DNA of 64,000 bases, from NCBI GenBank assembly GCA_003022365.1, contig PXOU01000018.1, positions 75,964 to 139,963 of the forward strand, in the 5' to 3' direction. A program made the position numbers and the translations under genes. Below the pieces are notes generated by a model, which was given only the letters and a program-made list of their open reading frames with translations, was not told where the DNA came from and searched no databases. Positions within the stretch are counted from its first letter, which is position 1, and every line of letters starts with the position of its first letter. Positions 13,703 to 14,168 of this stretch are shown in pieces. The DNA is from Candidatus Saccharibacteria bacterium QS_5_54_17. GTDB lineage: Bacteria > Patescibacteriota > Saccharimonadia > QS-5-54-17.

Positions 13703-13881
13703 CGCGATCCACTCTAGAAAATTACAGGGATAAATACATTTGGTGACCCCACGGGGATTCGAACCCCGGTTATTCCGGTTGTACCGGAACGTCCTGGACC
13801 TATCTTAATCTCGCGATCCACTCTAGAAAATTACAGGGATAAATACATTTGGTGACCCCACGGGGATTCGAACCCCGGTTA
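13703..13881. repeat. Tandem 69-bp direct repeat pair (13703-13771 and 13813-13881)
   Basis: Near-identical gcgatccactctagaaaattacagggataaatacatttggtgaccccacggggattcgaaccccggtta twice, 41 bp apart. Each copy contains a tRNA 3-prime half plus about 38 bp of 3-prime flank. Confidence 0.8.
13741..13800 (-). pseudogene. Truncated tRNA (3-prime ~60 nt only, no 5-prime acceptor strand)
   Basis: Reverse complement reads GGTCCAGGACG-TTCCGGTACAACCGGAA-TAACCGGGGTTCGAATCCCCGTGGGGTCACCA. T-arm and acceptor 3-prime strand are identical to tRNA-Glu; the anticodon arm differs; no matching 5-prime strand. Confidence 0.55.
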
Positions 13882-13925
13882 CCAGGCTGAGAACCTGGCG
13901 TCCTGGACCACTAGACGATGGGGCC
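13850..13925 (-). tRNA. tRNA-Glu (anticodon CUC)
   Basis: GGCCCCATCGTCTAGTGGTCCAGGACG CCAGG-TTCTCAG-CCTGG TAACC GGGGTTCGAATCCCC GTGGGGTCACCA. 7-bp acceptor stem (one GU), canonical T-arm, anticodon loop TTCTCAG, encoded CCA. Confidence 0.85.
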
Positions 13926-14168
13926 GTCAAATGTATTTATTAAAGATTCTAACATGGCTCGATCCTTCCATGATTTGAGCTGTTTTTCTCTGCGAACAGC
14001 TTCTGCTCTCGTATTATACGGTTCTTTATAAACGAGAATGACTGGAAGACGGGATTTTGTGTAACGGATTTGGCCATTTTGGTGCCGTTTTAGCCGATCT
14101 TTCAAGTTAACGGTGCTACCGATATAGTAACTGTTATCAGCGGTTTCTAAAATACACGTATAAAACAT
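13911..14168 (-). CDS. Minimal GIY-YIG nuclease family protein (85 aa)
   Basis: FYTCILETADNSYYIGSTVNLKDRLKRHQNG is a GIY...YIG...R...H..N motif set. The last 5 codons and TAG stop overlap the 5-prime end of tRNA-Glu. Confidence 0.75.
   Translation of the reverse strand: MFYTCILETADNSYYIGSTVNLKDRLKRHQNGQIRYTKSRLPVILVYKEPYNTRAEAVRREKQLKSWKDRAMLESLINTFDGPIV

What the first reader, a model, noticed from the sequence alone, without database searches (positions are those of the whole stretch)
13703..13940. 69-bp tandem direct repeat creating a second, 5-prime-truncated tRNA half, and a 12-bp inverted repeat clamping tRNA-Glu
The tRNA-Glu 3-prime half plus about 38 bp of downstream flank is duplicated almost perfectly (13703-13771 and 13813-13881). 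The downstream copy has a different anticodon arm (TTCCGG-TACAA-CCGGAA) and no 5-prime acceptor strand. Separately, ATAAATACATTT (13839-13850) and AAATGTATTTAT (13929-13940) form a perfect inverted repeat immediately flanking the mature tRNA ends. This would extend the acceptor helix in the precursor, or mark an att-like or recombination site.
Basis: seen in the sequence. Interest (0 to 1): 0.55.

Follow-up and report, generated by a model that had tools for sequence, protein, structure and literature searches.

The report
Nuclease gene nested in tRNA-Glu
The repeat and the inverted repeat are both real: they belong to a tRNA-Glu gene in a Saccharibacteria chromosome that was broken by a tiny GIY-YIG nuclease gene carrying its own intact, stem-clamped tRNA-Glu, a layout that recurs next to many different tRNA genes in other bacteria and that I could not find described in the literature I searched.

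Summary
Both observations are confirmed. There is a perfect 70-nt direct repeat (13703-13772 / 13812-13881, period 109). A perfect 12-13-nt inverted repeat hugs the intact tRNA-Glu(CUC) at 13850-13925 on the minus strand.

A third tRNA piece (14175-14228, positions 1-54) and an 85-aa catalytic-domain-only GIY-YIG ORF (13911-14168) lie just upstream.

Read on the minus strand, the locus is: promoter, 5' piece of an 'outer' tRNA-Glu, GIY-YIG ORF, clamped 'inner' tRNA-Glu, spacer, 3' piece of the outer tRNA.

Five related assemblies keep this layout. They show that the perfect 70-nt repeat is a secondary gene-conversion tract. One otherwise identical assembly lacks exactly one 109-bp unit.

Among 160 loci with homologous ORFs, about 39% have a same-strand tRNA T-arm within 350 nt (71 same-strand, 1 opposite). 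Many carry partial copies of the neighbouring tRNA. Leader-trailer clamps occur only on tRNAs just downstream of the ORF.

Best reading: a minimal nuclease-plus-replacement-tRNA cassette that colonises tRNA genes. The nuclease activity and its role in mobility are inferred. It is not an integrase att site, a group I intron or an assembly error.

The parts
14242..14270 (-). Promoter-like site (TTTATA-17-TATACT) ending 13 nt upstream of the outer tRNA 5' piece. It is the only good candidate to drive the 5' piece, the GIY-YIG ORF and the inner tRNA as one transcript.
   Evidence: The -10 region lies inside the block shared with L002, whose sequence further upstream is unrelated. Function is inferred, not shown.
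14175..14228 (-). Piece A: the 5' part (positions 1-54) of an interrupted 'outer' tRNA-Glu. It has the acceptor 5' strand, the D arm, a degenerate anticodon arm (TTCCGGTTCAACGGGAA), the variable loop and the T-stem 5' strand GCGGG, and it breaks in the T loop (GCGGGT|ATAAATATG).
   Evidence: Its first 27 nt are identical to the intact tRNA. The same piece is present in L001, L002, L170, L171 and, with a true UUC loop plus a 24-nt hairpin insertion, in L003/L004.
13911..14168 (-). 85-aa GIY-YIG ORF with the catalytic domain only (UPF0213 / Slx1-like). It starts 6 nt after the break in piece A. Its stop codon TAG (13913-13911) is positions 13-15 of the downstream tRNA.
   Evidence: Pfam PF01541, E = 1.2e-13. 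PDB 1zg2 and 1ywl (UPF0213), E = 3e-16 and 9e-14. Relatives are 98% and 73% identical and have the same 85-aa length.
13928..13940 (-). Leader arm of the clamp (ATAAATACATTTG). It lies inside the C-terminal tail of the ORF, 2 nt upstream of tRNA G1.
13850..13925 (-). Intact 'inner' tRNA-Glu(CUC) with encoded CCA.
   Evidence: ARAGORN. Rfam tRNA, 60.4 bits.
13839..13851 (-). Trailer arm of the clamp (CAAATGTATTTAT). It overlaps C75 and A76 of the CCA end.
13812..13881 (-). Direct-repeat copy 1: the last 32 nt of the inner tRNA plus 38 nt of its 3' flank.
13801..13811 (-). 11-nt non-tRNA spacer (AGATTAAGATA) between the 38-nt flank and piece C. It is conserved in L001, L002 and L171.
13741..13800 (-). 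Piece C: the 3' part (positions about 17-76) of the outer tRNA-Glu, starting in the D loop. Its anticodon arm is TTCCGGTACAACCGGAA. Its T arm and 3' end have been overwritten by inner-tRNA sequence.
   Evidence: The loop varies between close strains (ACA in the window and L002, GCA in L001, a deletion in L171), which shows there is no constraint on decoding.
13703..13772 (-). Direct-repeat copy 2: the end of piece C plus a second copy of the 38-nt flank, including an orphan copy of the trailer arm (13730-13741). I read it as a gene-conversion tract.
   Evidence: L002 and L171 keep an older T arm and a different 3' flank here. L001 has a shorter tract. L170 lacks the unit.

Best explanation
The finding is the visible edge of a composite locus of about 490 bp on the minus strand of a Candidatus Saccharibacteria chromosome.

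Anatomy. An 'outer' tRNA-Glu gene of UUC type, with anticodon stem TTCCG/CGGAA, has been broken. It survives only as two overlapping, non-functional pieces: A (positions 1-54, 14228-14175) and C (positions about 17-76, 13800-13741). Between them sits a cassette made of an 85-aa catalytic-domain-only GIY-YIG nuclease ORF, an intact 'inner' tRNA-Glu whose leader and trailer pair in a 13-bp helix, and a 49-nt spacer.

Inferred life cycle. This class of small GIY-YIG gene colonises tRNA genes. The nuclease breaks an unoccupied tRNA gene in the DNA that encodes the conserved D loop or T loop. The break is repaired from an occupied copy, with pieces A and C serving as homology arms. The inner tRNA compensates for the gene that was destroyed.

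Expression. The whole unit is probably transcribed from the old tRNA promoter.

Role of the clamp. It extends the acceptor stem. Most likely it lets the inner tRNA fold and be cut out correctly from a transcript that begins with a decoy copy of its own 5' half and an mRNA, much like the processing stems that flank rRNAs.

Origin of the 70-nt repeat. It is secondary. Gene conversion copied the inner tRNA's T arm, 3' end and 38-nt flank onto piece C. The resulting repeat can in turn delete one 109-bp unit.
For: Shown directly:
- Anatomy and coordinates.
- The ORF is a GIY-YIG/UPF0213 domain.
- The same order (piece A, ORF, clamp, tRNA, clamp, spacer, piece C) occurs in L001, L002 and L171 (strains 98% identical in the ORF). 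It also occurs in L004 (about 69% identical at DNA level in the broken ORF; the intact L003 copy is 73% identical as protein, in an unrelated gene neighbourhood). L170 has the same order minus piece C, and L003 ends inside the tRNA.
- Gene conversion. The T stem of piece C grades from outer type (L002, L171), through chimeric (L001), to fully inner type plus flank (window). Inner and outer copies also share a lineage-specific D loop (TAGTGGTCCAGGA in the window, TAGCCCGGCCTAGGA in L004) while keeping different anticodon stems.
- L170 is identical to the window over 6.1 kb except for one missing 109-bp unit.
- Decaying ORF copies occur: L171 has an 11-nt deletion and L004 is cut to 63 aa.

Family-level support, from 160 loci with homologous ORFs:
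- 39 have a same-strand tRNA within 400 nt upstream, 23 within 400 nt downstream, and 1 has an opposite-strand tRNA.
- T-arm motifs are 0.50 per kb near the ORF against 0.064 per kb elsewhere, 71 on the same strand and 1 on the opposite strand.
- Partial copies of the adjacent tRNA sit on the far side of the ORF. 5' fragments are found in L013, L059, L080, L086, L094, L111, L125, L135, L141, L152 and L162. 3' fragments starting at about position 59-61 (or position 71 of the 91-nt tRNA-Ser in L026) are found in L026, L102, L110, L142, L143 and L154.
- L013 is a clean nested case. An outer tRNA-Gln is split at D-loop position 16/18 by a GIY-YIG ORF plus a clamped tRNA-Gln.
- L084 holds tandem arrays of tRNA fragments and three ORF copies.

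Clamp:
- A perfect leader/trailer complement of at least 8 nt occurs in 11 of 28 tRNAs just downstream of the ORF, 0 of 37 upstream ones and 1 of 31 non-adjacent ones. The helix sequences are unrelated between loci.
- Between the window lineage and L004 there are 3 compensatory changes and 1 G.U change among 13 pairs.
- Fold z-score is -5.35.

Transcription: a promoter-like site lies only upstream of piece A, and no terminator-like site lies inside the unit.
Against: - No empty (unoccupied) allele was found in a syntenic relative, so mobility is inferred from anatomy and distribution and was not observed.
- The protein has no DNA-binding domain. How it would pick tRNA genes is unknown, and nuclease activity is untested.
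- Pieces A and C overlap by 38 nt (positions 17-54). A simple single insertion does not predict this, so extra duplication or conversion steps must be assumed.
- The outer pieces are about as conserved between lineages (about 85-90% in aligned positions) as the functional inner tRNA (86%), while the ORF is 69%. That fits refreshment by conversion or homing, but it could also mean the pieces have a function.
- About 60% of sampled family members show no tRNA nearby, so the association is specific to certain clades.
- The clamp covariation rests on essentially one evolutionary comparison. The enrichment counts include near-duplicate loci (about 7 independent cases).
- All sequences are metagenomic assemblies. 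The L170 deletion could be a repeat collapse.
Confidence: 0.65

Rival explanations
1. The small GIY-YIG protein is a host factor and not a selfish element. It would be encoded in tRNA operons because it acts on tRNAs or on tRNA-gene DNA (processing, repair, resolving transcription-linked DNA structures). The tRNA fragments would be by-products of ordinary recombination among tandem tRNA genes.
For: - Strict co-orientation with tRNAs.
- The family is large and widespread: 19,403 clusters at E <= 1e-3.
- The prokaryotic Slx1-like clade has been suggested to touch RNA metabolism, on the basis of a TrmH fusion (PMC1564403).
- The outer fragments are unexpectedly well conserved.
Against: - Frameshifted or truncated copies occur in close relatives (L171, L004).
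- Tandem ORF arrays with pseudo-tRNAs occur (L084).
- The fragments lie exactly on the far side of the ORF and not elsewhere.
- Many different tRNA identities are involved, and about 60% of family members have no tRNA nearby.
- The ORF physically interrupts a tRNA gene here and in L013.
Confidence: 0.15
2. The locus is a decaying tandem array of tRNA-Glu genes. An unrelated GIY-YIG gene happens to sit in it, and the inverted repeat is fortuitous or simply part of the original intergenic spacers.
For: Tandem isoacceptor arrays and partial tRNA pseudogenes are common in bacteria (general knowledge). The 109-bp period looks like an array unit.
Against: - The same ordered layout recurs for Lys, Gln, Gly, Ala, Ser, Asn and Asp tRNAs in distant taxa.
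- Clamps are found only on tRNAs downstream of the ORF (11/28, against 0/37 and 1/31).
- The clamp shows compensatory changes.
- The ORF begins 6 nt after the break in piece A.
Confidence: 0.07
3. The direct repeats are attL/attR-type sites left by an integrase-mediated genomic island or prophage that integrated into tRNA-Glu.
For: - Direct repeats of a tRNA 3' part are the classic signature of such islands (general knowledge).
- A low-GC type I restriction-modification island lies 0.6 kb away and is absent from related strains.
Against: - The repeats are 109 bp apart, and pieces A and C bracket only about 375 bp with no recombinase gene.
- The restriction-modification island lies beyond the 118-aa gene and is not bounded by tRNA sequence.
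- No integrase domain was found among the ten longest ORFs between 9.7 and 22.6 kb.
Confidence: 0.02
4. The second repeat unit in the window, or its absence in L170, is an assembly artefact.
For: - All the data are short-read metagenome assemblies.
- L170 and the window differ only by the unit.
- Contig L166 ends about 100 nt upstream of the gene next to this locus, where a repeat would sit.
Against: - The 39 unique nucleotides of the unit (spacer plus start of piece C) are present, with their own SNPs, in L001, L002 and L171 from other samples.
- L001 has the flank duplication with two private substitutions.
Confidence: 0.05
5. The insertion is a group I intron carrying a GIY-YIG homing endonuclease, or the outer pieces form a split or nested tRNA that is reassembled at the RNA level.
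For: - Group I introns are frequent in tRNA genes of Patescibacteria (PMC13011429).
- The full-transcript fold pairs A's 5' acceptor strand with C's 3' strand.
- L081 shows a tRNA nested inside a tRNA with a 15-nt inverted repeat beside the outer halves.
Against: - No intron or other Rfam family besides tRNA is found in the window region at E <= 10, or in 20 related loci at gathering thresholds.
- After the ORF and the tRNA, only about 40 nt of the insertion remain, which is too little for a ribozyme.
- The break is in the T and D loops, not the anticodon loop.
- The outer anticodon loop drifts between close strains (ACA, GCA, deleted). The outer pieces carry 24-nt and 84-nt insertions in L003/L004.
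Confidence: 0.02

Closest known systems
Phage T4/T6 SegB, a free-standing GIY-YIG homing endonuclease in the tRNA gene cluster
   Same: - It is a GIY-YIG nuclease gene embedded among tRNA genes.
- It cuts inside tRNA genes.
- It promotes preferential inheritance of the region and, through microhomology between a tRNA 5' end and the segB 3' end, tandem segmental amplification (PMC13096335).
The partial tRNA duplications here and the tandem units in L084 and L094 look like the same kind of outcome.
   Different: - SegB is a phage protein with a DNA-binding region in addition to the catalytic domain (own knowledge).
- The protein here is 85 aa, has the catalytic domain only, belongs to UPF0213/Slx1-like, and is chromosomal. 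Only 1 hit was found in 2.9 million viral contigs.
- The ORF here physically interrupts a tRNA gene and is paired with a clamped replacement tRNA.
UPF0213 / prokaryotic Slx1-like stand-alone GIY-YIG proteins (PDB 1zg2 BH0048, 1ywl EF2693; E. coli YhbQ)
   Same: Clear sequence membership. It has the minimal domain architecture described for this clade (PMC1564403).
   Different: The 2006 family survey and the papers I could search report no link to tRNA genes, tRNA fragments or mobility. The family's function is unknown.
Group I introns with homing endonucleases in bacterial tRNA genes (including Patescibacteria)
   Same: A selfish nuclease gene sits inside a tRNA gene, and the damage to the host is neutralised.
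   Different: Here neutralisation comes from a second, intact tRNA copy at the DNA level and not from RNA self-splicing. There is no ribozyme. The breaks are in the D and T loops, not the anticodon loop.
Integrase-type islands and prophages at tRNA genes
   Same: The insertion is flanked by direct repeats of part of the tRNA. One side is restored to an intact gene and a fragment is left on the other side. The upstream-tRNA type loci have 3' repeats of 13-19 nt.
   Different: There is no recombinase. The insert is only 0.3-0.4 kb. In the window's clade a whole tRNA is carried, not just a 3' end.
Leader-trailer processing stems of rRNA operons (RNase III substrates)
   Same: Sequences flanking a mature stable RNA pair into a long helix, and the pairing (not the sequence) is conserved.
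   Different: Here it flanks a tRNA and overlaps the 3' end of a protein-coding ORF. RNase III cleavage is untested.
Archaeal split, permuted or intron-containing tRNA genes
   Same: tRNA halves are separated in the DNA and have complementary flanking sequences. L081 is the closest look-alike.
   Different: This is a bacterial host, with no sign of a conserved functional outer anticodon or a bulge-helix-bulge motif. The outer pieces drift and carry insertions.

Membership tests
GIY-YIG superfamily, UPF0213 / Slx1-like stand-alone clade | Significant match to the GIY-YIG catalytic domain | tested here: met
   Pfam PF01541, E = 1.2e-13, 51.6 bits against a cut-off of 22.6. Profile hits to PDB 1zg2 and 1ywl, E = 3e-16 and 9e-14.
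GIY-YIG superfamily, UPF0213 / Slx1-like stand-alone clade | Conserved motif residues (Tyr of GIY, Tyr-Ile-Gly, Arg, and the Glu near the C-terminal helix) and no extra domain | tested here: met
   Alignment A1: Y3, Y14-Y15-I16-G17, R25 and H29 are invariant, and E61 is present in all full-length members. Total length is 85 aa.
GIY-YIG superfamily, UPF0213 / Slx1-like stand-alone clade | Nuclease activity | not testable with these tools
   Needs biochemistry.
Free-standing homing endonuclease genes (Seg-like) | Nuclease gene placed in or next to a conserved target gene, with flanks homologous to the target | tested here: met
   The ORF is bracketed by pieces of the same tRNA gene here and in at least 15 other loci.
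Free-standing homing endonuclease genes (Seg-like) | Occupied and empty alleles in otherwise syntenic genomes | tested here: inconclusive
   Relatives found through both neighbouring genes either carry the cassette (L001, L002, L170, L171), end at the repeat (L166), or are not syntenic (L167-L169, L173).
Free-standing homing endonuclease genes (Seg-like) | Separate DNA-binding or target-recognition domain | tested here: not met
   The protein is 85 aa with the catalytic domain only.
Free-standing homing endonuclease genes (Seg-like) | Degenerating copies, as expected from the homing cycle | tested here: met
   L171 has an 11-nt deletion and L004 is truncated to 63 aa.
Free-standing homing endonuclease genes (Seg-like) | Cleavage of the endonuclease-free allele and gene conversion | not testable with these tools
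   Needs a cleavage assay or crosses.
Group I intron in a tRNA gene | Ribozyme core detectable by covariance model | tested here: not met
   No Intron_gpI match at E <= 10 in 13300-14600, nor at gathering score in 20 related loci.
Group I intron in a tRNA gene | Insertion in the anticodon loop with precise exon continuity | tested here: not met
   The breaks are at T-loop position 54 and D-loop position about 17, with a 38-nt overlap.
Integrase-mediated island at a tRNA gene | Tyrosine or serine recombinase gene inside the repeat-bounded segment | tested here: not met
   The segment holds only the GIY-YIG ORF and a tRNA. No recombinase domain was found among the ten longest ORFs between 9.7 and 22.6 kb.
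Integrase-mediated island at a tRNA gene | Direct repeats made of the tRNA 3' part | tested here: met
   The 70-nt repeat includes the last 32 nt of the tRNA. Comparison with L002 and L171 shows it is a secondary conversion tract.
Leader-trailer processing helix (rRNA-operon type) | Complementary sequences flanking the mature RNA, kept by compensatory change | tested here: met
   13-bp helix. Against L004 there are 3 changes on both sides and 1 G.U change. 98.5% of cells are paired, against 32-52% when the partners are slid. The feature is enriched in the same gene arrangement.
Leader-trailer processing helix (rRNA-operon type) | Cleavage by RNase III or another double-strand-specific RNase | not testable with these tools
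   Needs RNA end mapping.
Split or nested functional tRNA | Outer halves keep a functional, conserved anticodon arm and cloverleaf | tested here: not met
   The loop is ACA, GCA or deleted in close strains. There is a G-G mismatch in the stem of piece A. L003/L004 carry 24-nt and 84-nt insertions.

The most novel reading that the evidence does not exclude
The locus would represent an undescribed, widespread class of minimal mobile element. Its core is an 80-100-aa catalytic-domain-only GIY-YIG nuclease that homes into tRNA genes at the DNA encoding the universally conserved D loop or T loop. It repairs the damage it causes by carrying a partial or complete replacement tRNA. In one clade it uses a leader-trailer clamp so that the replacement tRNA matures from the nuclease's own mRNA.

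A more extreme variant is also not excluded (I put it at about 0.05). Because the protein has no DNA-binding domain, target choice could be supplied by nucleic-acid structure, or by the tRNA-like leader RNA it is transcribed with.
Probability: 0.35. Interest if true: 0.8.

Novelty: new variant of a known kind. Interest (0 to 1): 0.62.

Why it matters
- It would give a concrete, testable role to part of a very large protein family of unknown function. UPF0213 / Slx1-like GIY-YIG has 19,403 clusters at 50% identity in the survey library.
- It would explain a recurrent source of tRNA pseudogene fragments, nested tRNAs and assembly breaks in small genomes such as Patescibacteria.
- It would show a way for a selfish nuclease to occupy an essential single-copy gene without an intron: it brings a spare copy.
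- The cassette also moves tRNA genes and lets them change anticodon (CUC here, UUC in L004). This bears on how tRNA repertoires evolve.
- The clamp is a compact natural device for releasing a tRNA from an mRNA.

For this window alone, the practical message is that the repeat is real biology and not a mis-assembly.

Tried and rejected
- Group I intron or any other known RNA family. The Rfam scan of 13300-14600 at E <= 10 and of 20 related loci at gathering thresholds found only tRNAs (the window scan also gave chance-level hits such as mascRNA).
- Integrase att site. No recombinase was found, and the restriction-modification island is not bounded by the repeats.
- Empty-site search. I used homologues of both neighbouring genes (the 288-aa and 118-aa proteins) and all 12 contig look-ups. 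No syntenic relative with an uninterrupted tRNA-Glu was found. L166 ends at the repeat, and L167-L169 and L173 are not syntenic.
- Closer relatives. The best hits were 56% identical in JGI metagenomes and 55% in GTDB genomes, so the only close relatives are ENA and Logan contigs L001-L004, L170 and L171.
- Phage origin. Only 1 weak hit was found in viral contigs.
- Defence-system or phage-family assignment. PADLOC and PHROGs gave only marginal hits.
- Other copies in the window. There are none.
- Literature. Five full-text searches found no paper that links small GIY-YIG/UPF0213 genes with tRNA genes or fragments in bacterial chromosomes. The library covers open-access papers only, so absence is provisional.
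- Single clean insertion model. It does not fit the 38-nt overlap between pieces A and C. I could not settle the order of events (T-loop break at position 54 versus D-loop break at position 16/17).
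Full report
**1. Observation**

The region was read on both strands. The repeat finder gives two 100% identical 70-nt copies at 13703-13772 and 13812-13881, 109 nt apart. TRF reports the same as a 109-bp period with 1.9 copies.

ARAGORN and Rfam place an intact tRNA-Glu(CUC) at 13850-13925 on the minus strand. Read in the tRNA's sense, each repeat copy is the last 32 nt of a tRNA plus 38 nt of 3' flank.

The second copy belongs to a tRNA piece (13800-13741).

The 12-mer ATAAATACATTT occurs three times, at 13730, 13839 (+) and 13929 (-). 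With up to one mismatch, 0.37 matches are expected in the whole window and 4 are found. The helix around the tRNA is 13 bp (13940-13928 with 13851-13839). It takes in C75-A76 and starts 2 nt before G1.

**2.

Upstream on the minus strand lies a third tRNA-derived piece, 14228-14175. Its first 27 nt equal the 5' end of the intact tRNA. Its next part is about 90% identical to the downstream piece. It stops in the T loop (GCGGGT|ATAAAT).

Six nucleotides later an 85-aa ORF begins (14168-13911). It is a GIY-YIG catalytic domain and nothing else:
- Pfam PF01541, E = 1.2e-13.
- Nearest solved structures are the UPF0213 proteins 1zg2 and 1ywl, with a weak match to SLX1.

The ORF runs into the tRNA. 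Its stop codon TAG is positions 13-15 of the tRNA, and the leader arm of the clamp lies in its C-terminal tail.

On the minus strand the order is:
- promoter-like site (14270-14242);
- piece A (tRNA positions 1-54);
- GIY-YIG ORF;
- clamp arm, tRNA-Glu(CUC), clamp arm;
- 38-nt flank plus 11-nt spacer;
- piece C (positions about 17-76);
- the same 38-nt flank again.

A and C share an anticodon stem (TTCCG/CGGAA) that differs from that of the intact tRNA (CCAGG/CCTGG). They are therefore two overlapping remains of another, 'outer' tRNA-Glu gene. No other copy of any part exists in the window.

**3. Source and close relatives**

The neighbouring 288-aa protein is 100% identical to a protein of Candidatus Saccharibacteria bacterium QS_5_54_17.

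Word-based protein search found only four relatives of the ORF. Their contigs are very informative.

- L001 and L002 (98% protein identity), and L171 and L170 found through the neighbouring gene, keep the layout. L001, L002 and L171 have all of it; L170 lacks piece C.
- L003 and L004 keep the same order in a completely different gene neighbourhood. L003 is 73% identical as protein and its contig ends inside the tRNA; L004's ORF is broken and is about 69% identical at DNA level. There the outer pieces have a genuine UUC loop (GTTTCAC) and the inner tRNA is also Glu(UUC).
- In L003 and L004 piece A carries a 24-nt hairpin insertion in the D loop. In L004 piece C carries an 84-nt insertion in the T loop. 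As tRNAs they are dead.

Alignment of the window, L001 and L002 shows that shared sequence starts about 20 nt upstream of piece A and ends at the CCA of piece C. Beyond these points L002 is unrelated.

**4. Origin of the perfect 70-nt repeat**

- In L002 and L171, piece C has its own decayed T arm of outer type (…/CCCGC) and its own 3' flank. There the repeat is short and imperfect.
- In L001 the tract from the T loop onward is inner-type, while the T-stem 5' strand is still outer-type.
- In the window the whole stretch from the variable loop through the 38-nt flank is inner-type.

This graded series is what gene conversion from the inner tRNA onto piece C would produce.

Conversion is also visible in the D loop. 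Inner and outer copies share a lineage-specific D loop (TAGTGGTCCAGGA in the window lineage, TAGCCCGGCCTAGGA in L004) while keeping different anticodon stems.

L170 is 100% identical to the window over 3489 + 2576 nt but lacks exactly one 109-bp unit. This is either a deletion between the repeats or a repeat collapse in that assembly. Only reads can decide.

The duplication itself is not an artefact. Its unique 39 nt recur with private SNPs in three other assemblies.

**5. The pattern is general**

Pattern-based scans returned 80 loci from species-representative genomes and 80 from metagenomes that encode homologous small ORFs at 34-56% identity.

- Of these 160 loci, 39 have a same-strand tRNA within 400 nt upstream and 23 have one within 400 nt downstream. 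Only one has an opposite-strand tRNA.
- A strict T-arm motif is eight times denser within 350 nt of the ORF than elsewhere in the same loci, 71 on the same strand and 1 on the opposite strand.
- 62 loci (39%) have such a motif. In 16 of them it lies outside any intact tRNA.
- Many different tRNA identities are involved: Met, Gln, Trp, Ser, Asn, Asp, Glu, Lys, Gly, Ala, Val, Leu, Thr, Tyr and Arg. Related ORFs tend to sit by the same tRNA.

Partial copies of the adjacent tRNA lie on the far side of the ORF.
- When the intact tRNA is downstream, a 5' fragment precedes the ORF. It usually ends at about position 13-25 (L013, L059, L086, L094, L111, L125, L141, L152) and extends further in L080, L135 and L162.
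- When the intact tRNA is upstream, a 3' fragment follows the ORF. It starts at about position 59-61, or at position 71 of the 91-nt tRNA-Ser in L026 (L026, L102, L110, L142, L143, L154).

Individual loci are instructive.
- L013 is a clean nested case. An outer tRNA-Gln is split at D-loop position 16/18 by an ORF plus a clamped tRNA-Gln.
- L080 and L086 repeat the theme with tRNA-Lys.
- L081 has a tRNA-Gly inside a tRNA-Gly.
- L084 has tandem arrays of fragments and three ORF copies.

In a neighbour-joining tree the window's ORF groups with other 'tRNA-downstream' cases.

**6. The clamp**

The leader, tRNA and trailer fold as a cloverleaf whose acceptor stem is extended by the 13-bp helix (-48 kcal/mol, z = -5.35).

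Between the window lineage and L004 the helix differs at four pairs. Three are changed on both sides and one becomes G.U.

Across all loci, a perfect leader/trailer complement of at least 8 nt occurs in 11 of 28 tRNAs just downstream of the ORF. It occurs in 0 of 37 tRNAs just upstream and in 1 of 31 non-adjacent tRNAs.

Helices of 12-15 bp occur on Glu, Lys, Ala, Gln and Ser tRNAs (L004, L080, L086, L092, L094, L098, L162), and a 15-bp one lies near the nested tRNA-Gly of L081; about half of them abut the acceptor stem. Their sequences are unrelated.

Pairing, not sequence, is what is kept. About seven of these cases are independent, so the statistics are suggestive and not overwhelming.

**7. 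Mechanism: shown and inferred**

Shown:
- the anatomy and its conservation;
- the conversion tracts;
- the family-wide, co-oriented association with tRNA genes and fragments;
- the clade-specific clamp;
- decaying ORF copies in L171 and L004.

Inferred:
- (a) The ORF is the active agent. It is a nuclease that breaks unoccupied tRNA genes in the DNA encoding the D loop or T loop. Repair then copies in the cassette, with the outer pieces acting as homology arms. This would also explain why the outer pieces stay about 85-90% identical between lineages while the ORF is 69% identical.
- (b) The inner tRNA compensates for the destroyed gene.
- (c) The unit is transcribed from the old tRNA promoter.
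- (d) The clamp lets the inner tRNA fold locally and be excised, despite an upstream decoy of its own 5' half and an attached mRNA. It may act as an RNase III-type processing stem.
- (e) RNase P cleavage would remove the ORF's stop codon, which could limit nuclease expression.

I put about 0.65 on the overall cassette reading. I put about 0.5 on nuclease-driven homing specifically, and about 0.35 on the proposed role of the clamp.

**8. Rivals**

- Host-factor role for the protein: not excluded (0.15).
- Decayed tandem array with a coincidental ORF: does not fit the recurrence of the layout (0.07).
- Integrase att site: contradicted by size and content (0.02).
- Group I intron or split tRNA: contradicted by Rfam results, break positions and drift of the outer anticodon loop (0.02).
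- Assembly artefact: excluded for the duplication itself, open for the L170 deletion.

**9. Comparison with what is known**

In behaviour, the closest system is phage SegB. It is a GIY-YIG homing endonuclease that sits in the T-even tRNA cluster and cuts within tRNA genes. It was recently shown to drive tandem segmental amplification through microhomology between tRNA and segB (PMC13096335).

By membership, the protein is a UPF0213 / Slx1-like stand-alone GIY-YIG. The 2006 family survey reports no tRNA-gene linkage for this clade (PMC1564403). It lacks the separate DNA-binding part of Seg and I-Tev enzymes, so I do not file it as a Seg-type endonuclease.

The recent survey of tRNA introns in Patescibacteria deals with group I introns in the anticodon loop and does not mention GIY-YIG (PMC13011429). 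I found no paper describing this arrangement. The library searched is open-access only.

**10. Verdict**

The finding is real, and its parts are explained as pieces of a larger unit. For the window it is a new member. For the field it looks like a new variant of a known kind: a free-standing homing-endonuclease-like element that targets tRNA genes. It has three unusual traits: a domain-only nuclease, a carried replacement tRNA and a conserved leader-trailer clamp.

Interest is 0.62. The main gaps are the lack of an empty allele, the lack of any biochemical evidence, and reliance on metagenomic assemblies.

Noticed in passing
window 14785-24116: A low-GC (36-50% against about 55%) type I restriction-modification cluster (hsdR, hsdS, a 252-aa unknown, DUF3800, hsdM) plus RadC. 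It is present in the window and in L170. In related strains L001, L169 and L171 it is replaced by a 378-aa gene and a Ham1-like gene. This is a variable defence region about 0.6 kb from the tRNA-Glu locus and is not bounded by tRNA sequence.
   Followed up: partly
L170 3714-3830 (compare window 13703-13920): An assembly that is otherwise 100% identical over 6.1 kb lacks exactly one 109-bp repeat unit. This is either repeat-mediated deletion in the population or an assembly collapse.
   Followed up: partly
L081 3262-3470: A tRNA-Gly(CCC) gene is nested inside another tRNA-Gly(CCC) that is split in its anticodon stem. A 15-nt inverted repeat sits next to the outer halves and a GIY-YIG ORF lies directly upstream. 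It looks like an archaeal split tRNA but is in a bacterium with a small (805 kb) chromosome.
   Followed up: partly
L084 1-1900: Five tandem 85-bp units of a tRNA-Asp 5' part, with a hairpin in place of the anticodon arm. They are followed by three tandem units of (intact or pseudo tRNA, then GIY-YIG ORF) in a Saprospiraceae MAG.
   Followed up: partly
L059 2925-3000; L080 2924-2990; L081 2920-3000; L086 1402-1450; L094 56-140: One or two GC-rich hairpins, many with CCGCC/GGCGG-type stems, lie between the 5' tRNA fragment and the start codon of the GIY-YIG ORF. They match no Rfam family. They could be a conserved leader element or a small repeat element.
   Followed up: partly
window 13911-13925; also L059, L086, L094, L104, L108: The GIY-YIG ORF ends 9-20 nt inside the downstream tRNA; in the window the stop codon is in the D loop. 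tRNA 5' processing would therefore cut the stop codon off the mRNA.
   Followed up: partly
L004 3300-3395 and L003/L004 piece A (L004 2833-2856): There is an 84-nt insertion in the T loop of the outer 3' piece and a 24-nt hairpin insertion in the D loop of the outer 5' piece. These may be remnants of further insertion events at the same two loops.
   Followed up: no
window 13850-13925 compared with L004 3147-3224: The carried (inner) tRNA keeps the same anticodon stem in both lineages but reads CUC in the window lineage and UUC in L004. This is an anticodon switch inside the cassette.
   Followed up: no
window 34000-36000: A local GC peak (0.63) with strong positive GC skew (+0.20) and negative AT skew (-0.41). 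It overlaps a 758-aa sortase-domain ORF and lies next to tRNA-Leu(CAA) at 35706-35791.
   Followed up: no
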